Assembly (NCBI GenBank): GCA_951406725.2
Contig: OX597831.1
Location: forward strand, 68,882,001-68,946,000
Reading direction: 5' to 3'
Length of the DNA: 64,000 nt
Origin: Octopus vulgaris
Lineage: Eukaryota
The translations under genes were made by a program, and so were the position numbers. The notes under the pieces were generated by a model. The model worked only from the letters and a program-made list of their open reading frames with translations. It was not told where the DNA came from and ran no database searches. Below are positions 749-62,243 of this stretch, piece after piece (position 1 is the stretch's first letter; the number at the start of each line of letters is the position of its first letter).

Positions 749-939
749 ATTGTGATGGTCATATTTTGGCTAATTAACCACAGACACCAAACAGTTGGTC
801 TTCACTTCAGCTTTTGTTATTAGTCTTATTTTAGTGTTTTTGTCTAAAGTCTTTCGTCACACATCCTGTGACCTCTTCTGAACAATAACAAAGCTGAAGT
901 GAAAACTGAGTAAATAGTGTGTGTGGTTAATTGGCACAA

Positions 940-1510
940 ATACGACCATCCCTGAAATACAACAATATCTGTTTCAATACATGATTTTACATCAGGAATC
1001 TTGCAAAACAAATACATTAATACGCCTCCCCCACCTCCCCACAACACCACATCACACCACACTACACTACACCATACAACATTACACATCACATCACAAC
1101 ACACCACCCACACACCCATCCCCACATCTTTACACCTACACATACATACACATACACGTCCAGACCACCAGCCCTCTTTCACACGCACATACATACTCTC
1201 TTATACACACACGCACCTTTGTGTTGGGGGCTCCTTCGTATTGGAGGTCATCTTGACCTTTTTATCTCCCCTACTTCCCCTCTCCCGTTGACCATTCTGT
1301 CCGAAGTCAGACGCCATGAAAGATCGTTAGCTACTACACATATTTTTTTTCTCTCCTTGTTTCTCTCCTTATTTTTTCTGTGTATCTTTCTGTCGAAGAG
1401 CGTAGGCTCGAAACGTAAAAGACTTTTTCTATTCCTGAGTGCTATACTAATACAACTGTTTGTTTTGTACACCACCTGTCTTTGTCTTTTGTTTTTTTTG
1501 TAAACTCTCC

Positions 1511-1997: not shown

Positions 1998-2398
1998 AAT
2001 CATCATCATCGTTTAACGTCTGTTTTCCTTCTAGAACGGGTTGGACAATTCGACTGGGGTCTGGGAAGCCAGGAGGCTGCACCAGGCTCCAGTCTGATCT
2101 GGCAGTGTTTCTACAGCTGGATGCCCTTCCTAACGCCAACCACTGTATAACACAAATCATGAGCAGCCTAGCCAAAAAAAAAAAAAATGAATATAAACAA
2201 ACATGAAGCACTATACAGAGGAAGTCAAAAGCATAACACACACACATCATTGTTTCATCATCGTTTAGCATCTGCTTTCCATGCTAGCATGGGTTGGACG
2301 ATTTTGACTGAGGGCTGCATTTTGACGATTTTGACTGCACCAGGCTCCGATCTTGATTTTTGCAGAGTTTCTACTGCTGGATGCCCTTCGTAACGCCA
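1998..2398 (-). mobile_element. Two RTE-tail repeat fragments
   Basis: atcatcatcgtttaacgtc...gtttctacagctggatgcccttcctaacgcc at 1998-2145 and 2255-2398; the same tail follows RTE coding sequence at 5200-5520. Confidence 0.7.
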
Positions 2399-2721
2399 GA
2401 GCCTTGCAGAAGAAATATTCTCAATCTTGACTTATTTTTAGACCAGCCCCTAACTTTGGACAGCAACTGGAGGGACGTTGAGTCAGCAGCCACATCCTTA
2501 TAGACAACAGCACCCCAATTCTCACAGAACATTAGCAAAAATTTACTTCACTCTGTTCACTTTGAGGATGATCAGATGGATGGAGCCTGATGAAGCTGCG
2601 CCGACAATATTGTAAGGCTGCATTTGCAACAAGGGAATAACTGCTGCAGTGGAAACATGTGTAGGTCATTATAATATGCTGTATATAAGTATAAAATAAA
2701 TTTTGTGGATGTACAAGTCTC

Positions 2722-3159
2722 GGATCTTTTCGGTTTGAATGGCAGCTTTTTCTAGCGGTGTCATATGAAATTGTCACCCATAATTATGGCCCTAGTATCG
2801 ATCTATTGCATTTCAATCTATTTTAGGGTTAGAGTTAGAGTTAGGTTTACTTAGGGTTAGGGGTGGTGGAAGGGTATCTTTTTTTCTTCAGAAATGTAAA
2901 TAAACCCAATCTGTTTCTTAAATGAGGAACATATTCATATGCCACAGAATGTTTTCACCTCAATAGACGGTCATTGATTGGTTGAAATTGCAGAAATTGA
3001 AGAAAAAAAACAACAAATATCTTCCAAACTATAGAATTTTCTCAATAAAGCCAAGAGAAAAAGATGTTTTATAAACACATTCAACCAGTATACGAAGTTT
3101 AAAATTTTTTAGTTACCTAGAAATTATGTTAAAAACTGCCGTTCAAACCGAAAAGATCC
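2722..3159 (+). mobile_element. Merlin-like MITE with internal TTAGGG-type repeats
   Basis: TIR GGATCTTTTCGGTTTGAAyGGCAG at both ends; perfect 8-bp TSD CAAGTCTC. Confidence 0.85.
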
Positions 3160-10086: not shown

Positions 10087-10689
10087 GAAAACAGATTGTA
10101 ATAATGATGATGATAATGATTCAACAGTAACTAAATGTACTAAATGACCTGTCTTCAGGGGTAACACAATTTTGTAATTTGTAACACAATTGGTGAGTCA
10201 CTAGACTCCCAAGTAGCTTCACAGTTAGACATCCTTTTTTATTAACCACTTGACAATGGGAGTGGAATAGAACTCACACAGATCCAGACAAGCAATGTTC
10301 TGAAATTCAATAGAGTGACTGAAGTAAGTTAGTGTTCTAGTACCATGTTAGTTTGTCCCTGAATATCAACTCTGAAAAGTATATCAATGAGTTAGTTAAC
10401 GGATCTTTTCAGTCTGAAGCACGGATTTTCTAATTAACTTTTCTAACTAAACACTTTGAAACTTTGGATATTGGTTGAATGTGTCACGTAGAATAGGGTT
10501 TATTCTTAATGTTTTTGACAAAAGTTTGTATTTTAGAAGTTATTTCGTGTTAAATTTGTTGTGTTTGGGTAATTTTAACCAATCAATGATGTGTACTCAG
10601 CTGAAGAAAGTTACTGCTGCTGTTTGTGAACAACAACTTCCGGGTCCATTAACAAAATGAATCTTCAACAACAGAAAAATTTAAACATA

Positions 10690-10897
10690 TATATATATAC
10701 AAAATGGGAAAGTTTACGAAAATAAACAAAAGACGAAGGCAGGTGGAGTACAAACAAACAAATGTATTAGTATAGCGCACAGGAATAGAAATAGAAAAAG
10801 TCTTTTACGTTTCGAGCCTACGTTTTTCAACAGAAAGATACACAGAAAAAAACAAGGAGAGAAAAAAAATGCGTGTAGGAGCTAACGATCTATCATG
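10690..10897 (-). mobile_element. PLE pLTR with hammerhead motif at 10801-10838
   Basis: Reverse complement of 1315-1512. Confidence 0.7.
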
Positions 10898-10909
10898 GTA
10901 TATACTTAC

Positions 10910-15676: not shown

Positions 15677-16064
15677 CTACCATACTGATTAGTCTACCAT
15701 ACTGATTAGTCTACCATACTGATTAGTCTACCATACTGATTAGTCTACCATACTGATTAGTCTACCATACTGATTAGTCTACCATACTGATTAGTCTACC
15801 ATACTGATTAGTCTACCATACTGATTAGTCTACCATACTGATTAGTCTACCATACTGATTAGTCTACCATACTGATTAGTCTACCATACTGATTAGTCTA
15901 CCATACTGATTAGTCTACCATACTGATTAGTCTACCATACTGATTAGTCTACCATACTGATTAGTCTACCATACTGATTAGTCTACCATACTGATTAGTC
16001 TACCATACTGATTAGTCTACCATACTGATTAGTCTACCATACTGATTAGTCTACCATACTGATT
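15677..16064. repeat. Perfect 17-bp minisatellite (CTACCATACTGATTAGT) x ~22.8
   Basis: No variant units seen. Confidence 0.95.
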
Positions 16065-31880: not shown

Positions 31881-31919
<39 letters not shown>

Positions 31920-32189
31920 TTAATAAGGGTGAGAGAATTAGATACTAATTTAATAGTATATTTATTCAACACCAAGTGGCCTAGTGCTCCGAGAAACCTG
32001 GATTATTATAATATTTTATAACATATTATAATATTTTTACAAAATAAATATAAGAGAGTGGTCACTATATTGCTCACTCTAGCACCAGTTAATCCAAAAG
32101 GTTTCAACCACGAAAATACATGTTTCCCATGAAAGTCAGTACGATTGTTAGCTCACACGGACAGGGCAAATAAAAAATAACAAAAATAC

Positions 32190-32284
32190 AGATTATTTTG
32201 GGACAATTGTTTCGCTATTAATGAATTAAATGTAATTTTACTTACAAAAAAAATCCATTTGTAGCTCGTCAGCCAAAACTATCT
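32190..32284 (-). ncRNA. Type I hammerhead ribozyme, intact core, copy 1
   Basis: agatagttttgg-CTGACGA-GCTA(44 nt)TAGC-GAAA-C(aatt)GTC-ccaaaataatct. Confidence 0.85.
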
Positions 32285-32725
32285 GGATGAAATCCACTCA
32301 ATCACACGCCAGATTTTACCATAACGATAAATACGCGTGTGGTTCAATTGATTACATCCGACGCTATAATTCAAATGCCCCAACCAACAGCGCGCCAAAC
32401 TTTCACGGAAAACAAATACAGCATTTAGAAATAAATGCAGCATAATTATAATTAATTAATAAGGGTGAGAGAATTAGATACTAATTTAATAGTATATTTA
32501 TTCAACACCAAGTGGCCTAGTGCTCCGAGAAACCTGGATTATTATAATATTTTATAACATATTATAATATTTTTACAAAATAAATATAAGAGAGTGGTCA
32601 CTATATTGCTCACTCTAGCACCAGTTAATCCAAAAGGTTTCAACCACGAAAATACATGTTTCCCATGAAAGTCAGTACGATTGTTAGCTCACACGGACAG
32701 GGCAAATAAAAAATAACAAAAATAC

Positions 32726-32820
32726 AGATTATTTTGGGACAATTGTTTCGCTATTAATGAATTAAATGTAATTTTACTTACAAAAAAAATCCATTTGTAG
32801 CTCGTCAGCCAAAACTATCT
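32726..32820 (-). ncRNA. Type I hammerhead ribozyme, intact core, copy 2
   Basis: Identical to 32190-32284. Confidence 0.85.
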
Positions 32821-33044
32821 GGATGAAATCCACTCAATCACACGCCAGATTTTACCATAACGATAAATACGCGTGTGGTTCAATTGATTACATCCGACGT
32901 TATAATTCAAATGCCCCAACCAACAGCGCGCCAAACTTTCACGGAAAACAAATACAGCATTTAGAAATAAATGCAGCATAATTATAATTAATTAATAAGG
33001 GTGAGAGAATTAGATACTAATTTAATAGTATATTTATTCAACAA

Positions 33045-33321
33045 TAGCAATTAAGGACAACTTCTTAATAAGGAAAACTTAACAAGAAATTATCGGGTAG
33101 ATAGCGTGAAAAACCTCATAAAAGAAAAATTTCGAAAATAATTCTTTCTTATTGAACATATTAATTTATATATTTATATATAATGCCCTCTATATATAAA
33201 TTAATATGTTCAATAAGAAAGAATTATTTTCGAAATTTTTTCTTTTATGAGGTTTTTCACGCTATCTACCCGATAATTTCTTGTTAAGTTTTCCTTATTA
33301 AGAAGTTGTCCTTAATTGCTA
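33045..33321. repeat. Near-perfect foldback, ~129-bp arms, 18-nt spacer
   Basis: 33045-33173 is the reverse complement of 33192-33321. Confidence 0.9.
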
Positions 33322-35198: not shown

Positions 35199-35592
35199 TC
35201 TTTATATATAAAAGTGAGGTTGTGTGTCTGTCTCCTACGATTTAGATTCCTAACTACTCCCACATTTTGCGGTGCAGTTTAACCAAAACTGGGTATCTTA
35301 TAGTCGTGATTCATATCGAGACCGTCTGGGTATTAGCGCGCGTCTACGATGAGTCTACGATTTAAAAAAAAATTTACCATCAATTTTTCCCATTTTTAAT
35401 CCATTTTTGACATATATAAGGGAAGTAACTCTCTAAAATTTATTATTAAATCTCAGAACGTAAAAAGCTACAGTAACACCCTCCCCCTTTGTGGTTAGCC
35501 ATATTGAGATGGCTATTATACTTTACATCTCTAAAAATGCTTATATAATTATTTCCCTTACAAACCCGAGCAACGCCGGGCGATACTGCTAG
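35199..35592 (+). mobile_element. Non-autonomous Helitron
   Basis: A|TCtttatatataaa ... hairpin cccgagcaacgccggg ... CTAG|T; no TSD. Confidence 0.9.
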
Positions 35593-35609
35593 TGTATAAT
35601 AATGCCCTC

Positions 35610-40109: not shown

Positions 40110-40490
40110 TCTATTATTAAATATGAAGTAAATATAGGCATTATTAAATCTCAGAACGAGATGTAAACAGTAATCGCTCGACAATGTAAAGTATAATAGC
40201 CATCTTAATATGGCTAACCACAAAGGGGGGGTGTTACTGTAGCTTTTTAGCCTCAGGAGATCGACATCTCCAGCTGGCTTTAGACACACTTTCTGTGCCC
40301 TTCAGGTATTTGCAAAGGGAGGCCATCCCTTCCTCGTAAGCCTTAGTGATACGCACCGGACCAGTTTCGAGATTATTGTCTCTTATCAACAGGCGGTAAT
40401 CACCAGATCACGATGAAAGACAAGGCCTGTTTGCAAATATATAAGAGTTTTTCTAGTGACGTCTGCCACTGATTTCGGGGGCTAAAAAGC
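40110..40490 (-). mobile_element. Single permuted copy of the 357-bp HHR repeat family
   Basis: Homologous to 61460-62243; degenerate HHR at 40352-40396: TTGATAA-GAGA(caataa)TCTC-GAAA-C(tg)GTC. Confidence 0.7.
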
Positions 40491-40494
40491 TGAA

Positions 40495-41330
40495 GTAAAT
40501 ATAATTGAGTGGGAAAAATCAGATCAACTGGCCTTAGACTGTAAGACAAGAAAATTCTTAACAATGTTTGATATCTATCTCAAGGTGAGTTTTGCATCAA
40601 TTACGTGTGAAAAGAGGGACTGGTGGAATAGAATTTATCAGTGTAAAGGATTGTGTCAAGGCCAGTAATTTTGGGGGGTGGGGTTAGTTGATTACATAAA
40701 CCCTAGTGTTCAGCTGGTGTTCCTTTTATCGACTCTGAAAGGTGAAAGACAAATTTGACCTTGGTAGAATTTGAACTCAGAATGTAAAGGTGGATGAAAT
40801 GCCACAAAGCCTTTCGCCTGGTGTACCAACGATCTTGATAACTTTCCACTTTTGGATTGAGTTGATTTTGAGAAGATCAGTTTACTAAGGTACCTAGAAG
40901 CAATTGAGGAAATGTTGCTACAGAGGAGGCCCTCTCGGAGAAAATACTTAAAGCAATTGATAATGAAAACAAAGATGCAATACATGATAGGTGTCATGAG
41001 AAAAACAGAAGCAAGCCCTTAAGGAGCCATTTTGGCAGGTATCAAATGAAGTGAGGGGTAAGAATTCTTGGGATCAGCTTCGAAAAGATAAGTTGGGAAG
41101 AGAAACAGAGATAATGACAGTGAATATTGAAAGCCAATCTATTACAAATGCCAAGAGAAGACATGTTTTTGGGGAAGCAACATTTCCTGCATGTAGATCA
41201 TGTGGTATGTATGATGAGCCAGTGGTGGCACAATTAGTGTCTGAATGTCTGAAGCTTGCACAGAGAGCAGGAGAGTACAAAAAGTGGTGACTTTGCCAGA
41301 AATAGGAGTCTGTCCACTTGAAGACAGTAT
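40495..41330 (+). mobile_element. R4/Dong-like LINE relics with a family B SINE at 40650-40850
   Basis: W....LALDCKTRKFLTM; CRSCGMYDE...SECLKLAQ..EYK. Confidence 0.65.
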
Positions 41331-48420: not shown

Positions 48421-48510
48421 TATATACATATATATATGCATATATATATATACATATATATATACATACATATATATATACATATATATATATATGTATA
48501 TATATATATA
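47941..48510. repeat. Long imperfect (TA)n
   Basis: Direct reading. Confidence 0.95.
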
Positions 48511-48799
48511 CTAGCAGTATCGCCCGGCGTTGCTTGGGTTTGTAAGGGAAATAATTATATAAGCATTTTTAGAGAGTTACTTCCCTTATATAACCCGAGC
48601 AAAAATCATTAAAAACGTGGAAAAATGATGGTAATTTTTTTTAAATCATAGACTCAGCGTAGATGCATGCTAATACCCAGAAGGGATCGATATGAAGGAC
48701 GACTATATGATACCCGCTTTTGGTTAAACTGCACCGCAAAAGGTGGAAGTAGTTAGGAATCTAAATCGGAGTAGACAGACACACACACACACAACTTTA

Positions 48800-48812
<13 letters not shown>
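48511..48812 (-). mobile_element. Non-autonomous Helitron, same family as 35199
   Basis: ctagcagtatcgcccggcgttgcttggg is the reverse complement of the 3' hairpin and CTAG. Confidence 0.85.
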
Positions 48813-57272: not shown

Positions 57273-57995
57273 AAGGAAAAAAAAAATCCTTTCTGCTACA
57301 GGCACAAGATGAAAGGCAAAGTTGACCATGACAGAATTTGAACACAGAACTTAAGGATGGGTGAAATAGTGCTAAGCATTTCACCCAGCTTCCAAATGAT
57401 TCTGACAGCTTGCCACTTTAATAATGATGACGATGATGATGATGACGATAACGGTGATGACAATAACGAGAGCTTAACCTCCCTGATTATGATGATAAGA
57501 TGGACAAACCAACCACTAAGGCAGCAAAAAAAAAATATAAAACAAAAGCCAAACAGGAAAACTTGCAGGAAATATCAAGATTGTGGAAAGAAAAACCATT
57601 GTGTGGGTAATACCCCAAATGAGCTGAGAAGCTTATGTAGATGTAAGAAGAAGCCATCAGTGGCTGCAGAGTGTTTGAAAGCCAAAACAGAAGGATTCAT
57701 CCTAGCAGCACAAGATCAGAGTCTCCTCACCCAGAACTATCAAGCTAATGTCACACACAATGAGGCAGACACAATGTGTAGACTCTGCAATGTCAAACCT
57801 GAGAGTATTGACCACATTATTGCCAGTTGCTCGGTCATTGCCCCTACAGAATATAAAACCAAGTACGATCAAGTTGGCCAATACTTGCACTGGAGCATAT
57901 GCTATCACTATGGTATCTTGCACCCTAAGAACTGGTATGAACACCATTCAGAGTCAGTCACTGAGGTAGAGAATGTTACCATCCTATGGAATTAT

Positions 57996-58538
57996 CTTTT
58001 TCTCCCCTTGTTTCTCTCCTTGTTTTTTCTGTGTCCCTTTCCGTAGAAGAGCATAGGCTTGAAACATAAAAGACTTTTTCTATTCCTGAGTAGAGTGGCT
58101 GTGTGGTAAGTAGCTTACTTATGAACCACATGGTTCTGGGTTCAGTCCCACAGCGTGGCACCTTGGGCAAGTGTCTTCTACTATAGCCTCGGGCCGACCA
58201 AAGCCTTGTGAGTGGATTTATTAGACGGAAACTGAAAGAAGCCCGTTGTATATATGTATATGTGTGTATATGTTTGTGTGTCTGTGTTTTTCCCCCCAAC
58301 ATCGCTTGACAATCGATGCTGGTGTGTTTGCATCCCCACAACTTAGCGGTTCGGCAAAAGAGACCAATAGAATAAGTACTAGGCTTACAATGAATAAGTC
58401 CTGGGGTCGATTTGTTTGACTAAAGGCGGTGCTCCAGCATGGCCACAGTCAAATGACTGAAACAAATAAAAGAGTATACATCTGTTTGTTTTGTACACCA
58501 CCTGTCTTTGTCTTTTGTTTTTTTTCGTAAACTCTCCC
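57996..58538 (+). mobile_element. PLE pLTR fragment (HHR at 58035-58075) split by a family A SINE (58092-58475, +)
   Basis: 13-bp TSD CCTATGGrATTAT at 57983-57995 and 58537-58549. Confidence 0.8.
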
Positions 58539-60779: not shown

Positions 60780-61325
60780 TAAAGGCCAGACATTATTTTG
60801 TAGGATTTCAAACAAAAATCATACTTCCTCATTGATATGATTGTCCCAATCGACACAAATGTATCTGTCAAGACCTACCAAAAACTGAGCAAGTATAAAG
60901 ATCTTGAAATAGAAATTGGCAAAATGTGGAACCTCAAGACAAAAACAATACCTGTTGTCATAGGTGCCCTAGGAATGATAGCAAAAAGGGGGTTGAATGC
61001 TACCTAGCACTGGTACCAGAAAATCCCAAAATAGTGCTCATGAGAACTGCCCATATCTTATGTAAAATATAAACACCTTTTATGGTCATCTTAACATTAG
61101 ACAATCAAATTACTTTTAAAACAGACTTCTAATTTACTCATGTTTTGACAAACATTCTCTAAAATAATACTCTGTGCAAAACTAAATATATGGCACCTTA
61201 GTCATAACACCAACCTGCACTTCTAACTTGTTGTCTCTTGAGGTCTCTGGGTGAGACTTGGAGTCAACTTATACAAATACAAAGCAAAAGCCAAACATAT
61301 AACAACAACAACAATGATAATGATA
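60780..61325 (+). mobile_element. R4/Dong LINE 3' end
   Basis: RPDII...LIDMIVPIDTNVSVKTYQKLSKYKDLEIEIGKMWNLKTKTIPVVIGALGMI; flanked by (TAA)n. Confidence 0.85.
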
Positions 61326-61459
61326 ATCCATTCTAATATAGGCACAAGGCCTGACAATTGAGGGTAGGAGGCTAGTTGATTACATTAATTTCAGTGCTCA
61401 GCTGGTGCTTATTTCATCAACCTCAAAAGGGTGAAAGCCAAAGTTAACTCAGAAAGTAA

Positions 61460-62243
61460 AATCGGACACAGAATGTGTATCGTTAGCCAGCTGGAGGAGA
61501 TGTCTTCCTGGGGCTATAAACATCAGTAGCACTGTCCCGTATAGGACACCACACTTGGTTGGCAATTATATGTTATGATTCCATATTGCTGCTGTTTACA
61601 TCTCACTCAGAGATTTTATATAGCTTATTTCTCCTTTTTCGAGATCAGCAATGATTCATCGCTGGAAAAAGCATAAAGTATTTTGTGAGTGGGATGAGTT
61701 TTCATCACTAGCTGGTGATTAACACCTGCTGAGGATGGGTAACCACCCCGAAACTCGAGTCCGTGTGGATCACGTAAGGCTAGGGATAGGAGCAATGACC
61801 TCCCCTCACAAATACTAACCAGACACAGAATGTGTGTCATTAGCCAGCTGGAGGAGATGTCTTCCTGGGGCTATAAATGTCAGTAGCACTATCCTATATA
61901 GGACGTCACTCTTGGTTGGCAATCATATGTTATGATTCCATATCACTACTATTTATATCTCACTCAGAGATTTAATATAGCTTTTCATTAGTTTTTTGAG
62001 ATCAGTGACCACCCAGAATCTTGAGTCCGTGGGTATCCCGTAAGGCTAGGGATGAGAGAGATGACCTCCCCTCACAAATACTAATTGGACACAGAACGTG
62101 TGTCATTAGCCAGCTGGAGGTGTCTTCCTAGGGCTATAAACGTCAGTAGCACTGTCCTGTATAGGACACCACACTTGGTTGGCAATTATATGTTACTATT
62201 CCGTATCGCTATTGTTTGCTTCATGCTCAGAGTTTTAATATAG
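61460..62243 (+). mobile_element. 357-bp tandem HHR repeat (units of 357, 266 and a partial one)
   Basis: gacacagaa landmarks at 61465, 61822 and 62088. Confidence 0.8.
61722..61767 (+). ncRNA. Type I hammerhead ribozyme motif
   Basis: acacctg-CTGAGGA-t-GGGT(aacc)ACCC-c-GAAA-C(tcga)GTC-cgtgt. Confidence 0.7.

What the first reader, a model, noticed from the sequence alone, without database searches (positions are those of the whole stretch)
61460..62243. Second HHR tandem family (357-bp unit) with a circularly permuted, covarying relative 21 kb away
Seen: about 2.5 diverged units. Unit 1 has a complete HHR (CUGAGGA, GGGU/ACCC, GAAAC-UCGA-GUC); unit 2 has lost 91 nt including the 5' core. The minus strand of 40110-40490 has the same landmarks (ctggtgatta, atcac-taaggct, cctccc..caaatac, gccagctggag) but reads across the unit junction. 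Its stem II is a different sequence that still pairs (GAGA/UCUC). Inference: permutation plus compensatory change fits propagation from circular or multimeric RNA templates with selection on the ribozyme fold.
Basis: partly seen in the sequence, partly recalled or inferred. Interest (0 to 1): 0.7.

Follow-up and report, generated by a model that had tools for sequence, protein, structure and literature searches.

The report
Decayed hammerhead retrozyme with shared ends
A 357-base non-coding repeat carrying a self-cutting (hammerhead) RNA motif is really here, but it is a worn-out copy of an abundant family of a known kind of animal jumping DNA (a retrozyme), and because three insertions in this window all stop at nearly the same point, the family was likely copied from one fixed starting site by a Penelope-type enzyme rather than from random points on an RNA circle.

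Summary
Observation confirmed: 357-bp unit, 91-nt loss in unit 2, hammerhead (HHR) at 61729, and a 69%-identical relative at 40124-40503(-) crossing the unit junction. Covariation is stronger than reported: two stem II pairs and the catalytic 3-8 pair (C-G to U-A) all change on both sides. Sequencing-run contigs show a large family (2,121-3,065 contigs per DNA run, three species labels) with head-to-tail 357-nt joints. This is a new member of the animal non-LTR retrozymes, and this array is decayed (one damaged HHR). The 'circular permutation' is not good evidence of a circle: the array, the 40k copy and a third, 5'-inverted 89-bp insertion at 35.4 kb (9-bp target-site duplication, empty site found at 48.6 kb) all end 8-11 nt (at most 24) after one conserved hairpin, about 220 nt from the cleavage site, and differ only at 5' ends. 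That is what target-primed reverse transcription from a fixed internal start, as shown for a Penelope-like element, would leave. One pointer to circles remains: the 40k copy is almost exactly one unit long. Cleavage, circular RNA and the partner enzyme are untested. Modest interest.

The parts
61460..61816 (+). Unit 1, 357 nt, the only unit with a whole HHR core; 44% GC
   Evidence: joint 61816->61460 in all four runs
61817..62082 (+). Unit 2, 266 nt; 91 nt lost (5' arm of the rod, 5' core, 5' half of stem II)
62083..62243 (+). Partial unit 3 (161 nt); ends about 9 nt after the decayed hairpin, equal to unit-1 position 61623; AT-rich flank (83%), no target-site duplication seen
61723..61768 (+). 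Type I hammerhead of unit 1: C3-G8 core, stem II 61737-61740/61745-61748, palindromic helix III 61753-61760, predicted cut after 61761; stem I and pair 10.1-11.1 damaged in this copy
   Evidence: (Hammerhead_1 15.2 bits, gathering 34); family majority letters restore stem I
61677..61816 (+). Predicted 140-nt rod with the HHR at its tip; same rod predicted in the 40k copy with compensatory changes
61600..61614 (+). Small hairpin (5-bp stem, 5-nt loop) just upstream of the shared 3' end; second copy 61957-61971; candidate reverse-transcription start signal (inferred)
62006..62027 (+). Remnant 3' half of the unit-2 hammerhead, GAAA changed to GAAT, palindrome decayed
40124..40503 (-). Related monomer of a second subfamily: 354 nt between two copies of a 13-nt direct repeat (40503-40491, 40136-40124), read as target-site duplication or as terminal redundancy (367-nt period)
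40336..40407 (-). Hammerhead of the 40k copy: U3-A8 core (U3 at 40389), stem II G-C/A-U/G-C/A-U, best Rfam match Hammerhead_HH9 28.7 bits (gathering 52)
40148..40162 (-). Same small hairpin, stem kept and loop changed, 11 nt upstream of the 3' direct repeat
35439..35527 (-). 89-bp insertion of the 40k subfamily: 3'-terminal 18-19 nt in sense, preceded by a 68-nt inverted piece from further 5' (65 of 68 letters match the 40k copy), about 26 nt missing at the inversion
35430..35536 (-). 9-bp target-site duplication (35536-35528 and 35438-35430) around that insertion
48567..48575 (+). Empty site: a second copy of the host repeat (48482-48811) holds the 9-bp target once, with no insert
61313..61459 (+). 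Unrelated common dispersed repeat abutting the array's 5' end; its continuation is not found beyond the 3' end

Best explanation
This is a decayed copy of an abundant, non-coding animal retrozyme family (about 355-nt unit with a type I hammerhead), likely inserted by a Penelope-type reverse transcriptase/endonuclease acting in trans that would start copying at one fixed internal site and stop at varied 5' points. Steps: (1) shown: tandem 357-nt units, many copies, at least two subfamilies, compensatory changes in the hammerhead and its rod. (2) Inferred from the known family: tandem loci are transcribed, and source copies with intact hammerheads pair their palindromic helix III as dimers, cut out monomers, and may circularise. 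(3) Shown for three insertions: a common 3' end 8-11 nt past a conserved hairpin, about 220 nt downstream of the cleavage site, AT-rich flanks, no poly(A) tail, one proven 9-bp target-site duplication and one 5' inversion. (4) Inferred: target-primed reverse transcription from that site on a multimeric or circular RNA gives anything from 89 bp to 2.5 units. (5) Shown: after insertion the three units of this array drifted without regard to structure and unit 2 lost its ribozyme, so this locus is predicted to be dead.
For: Unit size, GC 44%, no ORF of 100 aa (longest ATG ORF 71 aa), highly paired circle (z -2.8 and -4.6/-3.7) match the described retrozymes (PMC7229834: 150-450 bp, GC <45%, mussel 350-390 bp). 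Family in species labels A, B and D with 2121, 3065 and 2281 contigs and head-to-tail joints. Covariation; U3-A8 is a known active natural covariant (PMC3088659; PMC4209133). Shared 3' end; depth falls 4.4-, 4.4-, 4.8- and 2.5-fold between 61622-34 and 61648-60, and two contigs leave the family at 61633 and 61638 with 75 and 1224 unlike letters. Target-site duplication with empty site. A purified Penelope-like protein starts reverse transcription at internal RNA sites, cuts AT-rich DNA and needs no hammerhead cleavage (PMC11167929); Penelope insertions show 5' truncation, inverted 5' pieces and 8-10-bp duplications. Retrozymes are argued to be non-autonomous Penelope derivatives (10.64898/2026.07.22.740005). 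Within-array changes ignore structure (P 0.46 and 0.61 for broken pairs).
Against: Only three insertions could be read with flanks. The depth fall is confounded: 9 of the 40 variant rows shown lie at 61650-61661, so contigs may be clipped there; of 6 listed pieces with 40 or more unexplained letters on the 3' side only 2 end at 61633-61638 (others 61569, 61597 twice, 61775; 32 of 7913 pieces shown), and no loose-end cluster at the proposed 3' end is among the 24 of 896 rows shown. Inversion plus duplication is also what LINE twin priming leaves (PMC2837659), so the partner is not identified; no Penelope RT or GIY-YIG piece was found among 8 of 62 window ORFs scanned. The array itself has no duplication and its 5' end may be a later deletion. 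In the 61k subfamily the 10.1-11.1 position reads U-A or C/A, not G-C, so its ribozyme may be weak. Antisense strands fold about as well (z -3.5, -2.7), and the half of the unit without the HHR shows no covariation excess (P 0.76, 0.38). No Rfam gathering score is reached.
Confidence: 0.7

Rival explanations
1. One reading: a circular RNA is primed at arbitrary points, so genomic copies are true circular permutations.
For: Head-to-tail joints; circle folds well; the 40k copy starts 180 nt away from where the array starts; circular templates are the published model (PMC7229834); 4 of 6 listed pieces with long unexplained 3' letters end outside the proposed zone.
Against: Three of three insertions end within 4 nt (or 15 nt) of each other on the unit map, chance 0.0005-0.014; 61460 is a mid-sequence break with overlap to the host repeat.
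Confidence: 0.1
2. The unit is the pseudo-LTR of an autonomous Penelope-like element; the window holds short 5'-truncated and inverted insertions of that element, not a separate retrozyme.
For: Fixed 3' end, inversion, 9-bp duplication and AT-rich targets are Penelope traits; U3-A8 was reported in a Penelope hammerhead; one stretch (61479-61517) is about 6 to over 70 times deeper than the rest, so related sequence is far more abundant than the 61k subfamily.
Against: Units join head to tail with no coding sequence between them here and in 28 contigs; the hammerhead has a 6-7-bp helix I, 4-bp helix II and palindromic helix III, the canonical form, not the minimal Penelope form; no ORF.
Confidence: 0.12
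3. A SINE-like RNA mobilised by a LINE, or a DNA-level minisatellite spread by unequal crossing-over, with the hammerhead as a leftover.
For: Twin priming is described for L1; LINE-like remnants lie in the window (zf-RVT at 57342-58043); local tandem growth by unequal crossing-over is proposed for retrozymes.
Against: No poly(A) or simple-repeat tail (3 A at most); DNA recombination alone gives neither a target-site duplication with inversion nor compensatory change at the catalytic 3-8 pair.
Confidence: 0.08

Closest known systems
Animal non-LTR retrozymes (Cervera & de la Pena 2020, PMC7229834; Li, Clavereau & Pollet 2026, 10.64898/2026.07.22.740005), nearest in size the mussel Mytilus family of 350-390 bp
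   Same: Tandem non-coding unit of about 355 nt, GC 44%, canonical type I hammerhead with short palindromic helix III, highly paired predicted circle, monomers and short multimers, many copies.
   Different: Species-specific sequence (no library match); one subfamily has a U3-A8 core and the other a non-G-C first stem II pair; this array has only one damaged ribozyme; a shared 3' end, a target-site duplication and a 5' inversion are seen here and were not described for animal retrozymes in the parts of those papers I read.
Penelope-like elements and their pseudo-LTR hammerheads (PMC4209133; PMC11167929; PMC3846280; 10.1101/2021.04.23.441226)
   Same: Hammerhead in a terminal-type repeat, partial tandems, 5' truncation, inverted 5' piece, 8-10-bp duplication, AT-rich target, 3' end at an internal site away from the cleavage site.
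   Different: No RT or GIY-YIG ORF; canonical rather than minimal hammerhead; candidate start site is an AU-rich stretch after a hairpin about 220 nt past the cut, not an AC-rich loop about 90 nt past it.
Rfam Hammerhead_HH9 (RF02275) and Hammerhead_1 (RF00163)
   Same: 40k motif aligns over the whole HH9 model including the stem I internal loop and a six-base loop II (28.7 bits); unit-1 motif aligns to Hammerhead_1 (15.2 bits).
   Different: Both are far below gathering scores (52 and 34); they sit in a mobile repeat.

Membership tests
Animal non-LTR retrozyme | Type I hammerhead in the unit | tested here: met
   Core letters and three helices in unit 1 and the 40k copy; damaged in the window's unit 1
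Animal non-LTR retrozyme | Tandem units of 150-450 bp, monomers to multimers | tested here: met
   357-nt period; joint 61816->61460 in 28 contigs over four runs; monomer at 40k
Animal non-LTR retrozyme | Non-coding, GC under 45%, no LTR structure | tested here: met
   GC 0.44; no ORF of 100 aa, longest ATG ORF 71 aa on the opposite strand; PBS and PPT were not searched for separately
Animal non-LTR retrozyme | Highly self-paired predicted circular RNA with the hammerhead able to fold | tested here: met
   63-66% paired, z -2.8 to -4.6 against 60 shuffles, HHR at the tip of a rod; antisense folds similarly, so this is weak
Animal non-LTR retrozyme | 'Active' locus: two consecutive units with complete hammerheads (Li et al. 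2026 definition) | tested here: not met
   Unit 2 lacks the 5' core, unit 3 ends before it; applies to this locus, not to the family
Animal non-LTR retrozyme | Self-cleavage in vitro | not testable with these tools
   No assay
Animal non-LTR retrozyme | Expressed as unit-length linear and circular RNA | tested here: inconclusive
   144 contigs of run X15 lie on the unit, but its RNA status is a guess and contigs cannot show circles
Autonomous Penelope-like element | ORF with RT and GIY-YIG endonuclease between pseudo-LTRs | tested here: not met
   No ORF in or next to the copies; no such Pfam family in 8 of 62 ORFs scanned
Penelope-type insertion signature | Fixed internal 3' end, 5' truncation or inversion, short duplication, AT-rich target | tested here: inconclusive
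   Met for three insertions in the window; contig tables give mixed support; partner enzyme unknown
Rfam Hammerhead_1 / Hammerhead_HH9 | Gathering score | tested here: not met
   15.2 of 34 bits and 28.7 of 52 bits

The most novel reading that the evidence does not exclude
The family records the whole insertion mechanism of animal retrozymes: a Penelope enzyme docks on a conserved hairpin of a circular RNA, starts about 11 nt downstream of it, and either falls off early (89-bp inverted copy), goes round exactly once (the 354-nt copy inside a 13-bp duplication, whose 5' start abuts its own 3' end) or rolls on (the 2.5-unit array); meanwhile two subfamilies keep active hammerheads with different catalytic pairs (C3-G8 and U3-A8). 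The hairpin would be the missing cis signal that ties retrozymes to their partner.
Probability: 0.25. Interest if true: 0.55.

Novelty: new member of a known kind. Interest (0 to 1): 0.3.

Why it matters
Hammerhead tandem repeats are common in invertebrates, so the element itself is ordinary. What has value is the insertion record: the papers read here infer the Penelope partnership from co-occurrence and sequence kinship and leave the mechanism open. A large family with a shared 3' end next to a conserved hairpin, target-site duplications and inversions makes two questions directly testable in one assembly: where reverse transcription starts, and whether exact one-unit copies are over-represented as a circular template predicts. 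The natural C3-G8 / U3-A8 pair of subfamilies is also a neat case of selection on catalysis.

Tried and rejected
Whole genome: none held, so no census of copies. Pattern scans for further copies with flanks: 0 matches in metagenome contigs, genome contigs (33) and viral contigs (34). Earlier findings by place and by sequence: none. Rfam at gathering, at E<=10 on 1.1 kb and at E<=1 on the window (147 matches, none a ribozyme): no hammerhead; weak hits appear only on 91-101-nt stretches. No RNA holder on record was listed. RNAalifold on two sequences missed the rod. The built-in shuffle of the count of structure pairs is powerless with two rows (52 of 500 reach the observed value); one search used a mis-indexed structure and is discarded. 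My first reading of the 40k core as CUGUUGA with an A6U defect was wrong: the gapless alignment gives UUGAUAA. The neutral simulation uses pairs chosen because both copies have them, so its very small values (0.0037 for staying HHR-compatible; 1-2 in 400,000 for three double changes as well) are optimistic, with the structure taken from one copy only, is the fairer test. An ATG 26 nt before the cut, as in the anole element, opens only 27 codons and is not kept in about half the family or in the 40k copy: rejected. The idea that 61460 is a reverse-transcriptase stop at the base of the rod is unproven: the junction overlaps the host repeat. Five opposite-strand joints among 15 of 132 shown may be 5' inversions or mapping artefacts of the unit's own inverted repeats: not counted. 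The 91-nt deletion was not among the joints shown. The 40k folds used 352- and 365-nt stretches, one base short at each end of the 354/367 nt fixed later.

Full report
1. What is there. The window is microsatellite-rich animal DNA; no whole genome is held. Its common repeats recall octopus, which is my recollection and no call's result. The finding is an array of 784 bp: unit 1 61460-61816 (357 nt), unit 2 61817-62082 (266 nt) and a partial unit 3 62083-62243. Over the shared first 161-164 nt the units differ at 19, 20 and 25 places. Unit 1 carries all hammerhead core letters (C3 61729, GAAA 61750-53, C17 61761) with a palindromic helix III that is predicted to pair as an 8-bp dimer helix (-10.7 kcal/mol). 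Unit 2 has lost 91 nt including the 5' core and has GAAT for GAAA; unit 3 stops before the ribozyme. The relative on the minus strand at 40124-40503 is 69% identical (237 of 343 aligned letters; score 188.5, best of 500 shuffles 40.5) and crosses the junction.

2. The ribozyme is under selection. The two hammerheads align without a gap from stem I to GAAA. In that register the 40k core is UUGAUAA: the catalytic 3-8 pair is U-A where unit 1 has C-G, and stem II pairs 2 and 4 are A-U where unit 1 has G-C; pair 3 is unchanged; pair 1 is G-C in the 40k copy and a U/C mismatch in unit 1. U3-A8 is a known, active natural covariant (PMC3088659, passages) and was seen in a Penelope hammerhead of Schistosoma (PMC4209133, parts 1-2 of 4). 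A neutral simulation at the observed divergence keeps a hammerhead-compatible state in 0.37% of runs and with three double changes in 1-2 of 400,000, but those pairs were chosen after the fact. In the fairer test, the rod predicted for unit 1 alone has 6 compensatory and 13 broken pairs of 48 in the 40k copy (null 2.1 and 18.9; P 0.012 and 0.03); the reverse gives 5 and 15 of 50 (P 0.054, 0.081). The other half of the unit shows no excess (P 0.76, 0.38), and differences between the units of the array ignore structure (P 0.46, 0.61). So selection acted on source lineages and this array has drifted since insertion. Rfam gives Hammerhead_HH9 28.7 bits for the 40k motif and Hammerhead_1 15.2 bits for unit 1, both under gathering score, and nothing on wider searches.

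3. It is a large family. Twenty of 24 listed runs hold part of the stretch, under four organism labels. Laying 4 of them on unit 1 at 80% likeness gave 2121 (about 80% of X1 read), 3065, 2281 and 144 contigs. The best-supported joint in all four is 61816 back to 61460 (9, 12, 4, 3 contigs; 15 of 132 joints shown), and loose ends before 61460 are the end of the unit (82, 116, 57, 6 contigs; 24 of 896 rows shown). The 357-nt period is thus the family's, and 61460 is no natural start. Majority letters at 61726 (93-98%), 61727 (57-77%) and 61768 (96-98%) would make stem I a perfect 7-bp helix, so the window's copy is the damaged one; letters at 61736 (C in 42-70%) and 61749 (A in 55-100%) make pair 10.1-11.1 U-A or C/A, not G-C (40 of 163 variant rows shown; none of those shown is at a core position). 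Run X15 is only guessed to be RNA, so expression is not shown.

4. The ends. A third family piece lies at 35439-35527: 89 bp, made of the 3'-terminal 18-19 nt of the 40k copy in sense and, in front of it, a 68-nt inverted piece from further 5' (65 of 68 letters equal), with about 26 nt missing between. A second copy of its host repeat at 48482-48811 lacks the insert and holds the 9-bp target once, while the filled site holds it twice: a target-site duplication with its empty site. This is the twin-priming layout described for L1 (PMC2837659, passages) and resembles the inverted 5' pieces and 8-10-bp duplications of Penelope elements (10.1101/2021.04.23.441226 and PMC3846280, passages). All three insertions end just after the same small hairpin (61600-14, 61957-71, 40162-48; stem kept, loop changed): the array after about 9 nt, the 35k piece after 8 matching nt plus three A, the 40k copy after 11 nt if its 13-nt terminal repeat is target DNA or 24 nt if it belongs to the unit. 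On the unit map these are 218-221 (or 232) nt past the predicted cut. Three random ends fall within 4, 11 or 24 nt with chance 0.0005, 0.003 or 0.014. The 30 bases after the ends are 77-83% AT (window about 63%). Contig data are mixed: depth falls 2.5- to 4.8-fold across this zone, but the window copy is also divergent just beyond it; 2 of 6 listed pieces with 40 or more unexplained 3' letters end at 61633 and 61638, four end elsewhere (32 of 7913 pieces shown). The array's 5' end overlaps a common host repeat by similar letters, that repeat does not resume after the array, and no duplication is visible: microhomology joining or a later deletion.

5. Mechanism. A shared 3' end with varied 5' ends on a tandem template produces apparent permutation with no need for random entry on a circle. 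It fits the one Penelope-like protein studied in vitro, which cuts AT-rich DNA, starts reverse transcription at two internal RNA sites away from the hammerhead cut, and does not need cleavage (PMC11167929, parts 1-2 of 4). I therefore read the family as a non-autonomous retrozyme copied by Penelope-type target-primed reverse transcription from a site next to the hairpin (confidence 0.7). Shown: the repeat, the covariation, the tandem family, three coincident 3' ends, one duplication with inversion. Inferred: cleavage as dimers, circular RNA, the enzyme, the role of the hairpin. One thing does point to a circle: the 40k copy is 354 nt inside a 13-nt repeat (shared 13-mers occur in 0.2% of random flank pairs), so its 5' start abuts its own 3' end, a single lap; one X8 contig also starts in that phase. 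With one or two cases this is a lead only; pausing at the same site one unit upstream on a linear multimer would give the same.

6. Comparison. It works like, and meets the testable defining features of, the animal non-LTR retrozymes: 150-450-bp tandem units, GC under 45%, type I hammerhead, mussel units of 350-390 bp (PMC7229834, passages and sections 14 and 17), argued to be non-autonomous Penelope derivatives (10.64898/2026.07.22.740005, parts 1-3 of 5). By that preprint's definition this locus is not an active retrozyme, since it lacks two whole ribozymes. It is not an autonomous Penelope element: no ORF (8 of 62 ORFs scanned). A 2020 review notes no conserved motif from which to deduce the partner of animal retrozymes (PMC7761336, passages). 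An Octopus vulgaris repeat paper lists 31 recently active Penelope-like families and never uses the word ribozyme in its main text (PMC13282606, passages); it bears on this window only if my guess at the host is right. Five searches (12-20 papers listed each) showed no paper on this family or on mapped ends of animal retrozymes; the library is open-access only, and the supplements of these papers, which I did not see, may list such families. Earlier AI notes on other genomes describe similar tandem units with Penelope-type ends; they are unchecked and I take them only as a sign that the pattern is common.

7. Verdict. Real feature; new member of a known kind; dead locus of a large family. Interest 0.3; the bolder reading (fixed hairpin start plus single-lap copies from a circle) has probability about 0.25 and would deserve about 0.55.

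Noticed in passing
window 35200-35600 and 48482-48811: Host repeat of the 89-bp insertion: two copies 82-89% alike, set in TA microsatellites, ending in a hairpin followed by CTAG, which recalls a non-autonomous Helitron (label recalled, not from a call).
   Followed up: partly
window 1390-1420 (+), relatives near 10679-10898 and 57997-58091: Minimal-hammerhead-like motif with a 4-bp stem II but a U at position 6 in a dispersed repeat; probably a Penelope pseudo-LTR (inferred); relatives are more decayed.
   Followed up: partly
window 754-950: Imperfect 200-bp inverted repeat (68%) holding a hammerhead-like motif with a 6-bp stem II at 880(-), core with one change.
   Followed up: no
window 31911-33043: 536-bp unit in 2.1 nearly identical tandem copies (99.8%) after a TA microsatellite, no hammerhead core found; followed by a fold-back around 33058-33300.
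   Followed up: no
window 61479-61517: This stretch of the unit is about 6 to over 70 times deeper in contigs than the rest, with loose ends resembling the 40k copy: the 40k-type subfamily seems far more abundant than the 61k type (depth is no copy number).
   Followed up: partly
window 61743-61749: Contigs of X1 and X5 carry yet another set of letters in the 3' arm of stem II, hinting at a third subfamily.
   Followed up: no
run X8, record 28: A contig whose family sequence begins at 61624 after 249 unlike letters: a second 5' start in phase with the shared 3' end, as in the 40k copy.
   Followed up: no
window 57342-58043: LINE-like remnant with a weak zf-RVT match (E 0.00018, below cut-off).
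   Followed up: no
window 15677-16064: 22.8 perfect copies of a 17-bp unit.
   Followed up: no
whole window: Microsatellite-rich animal DNA whose common repeats recall octopus genomes (recalled; no tool named the organism).
   Followed up: no
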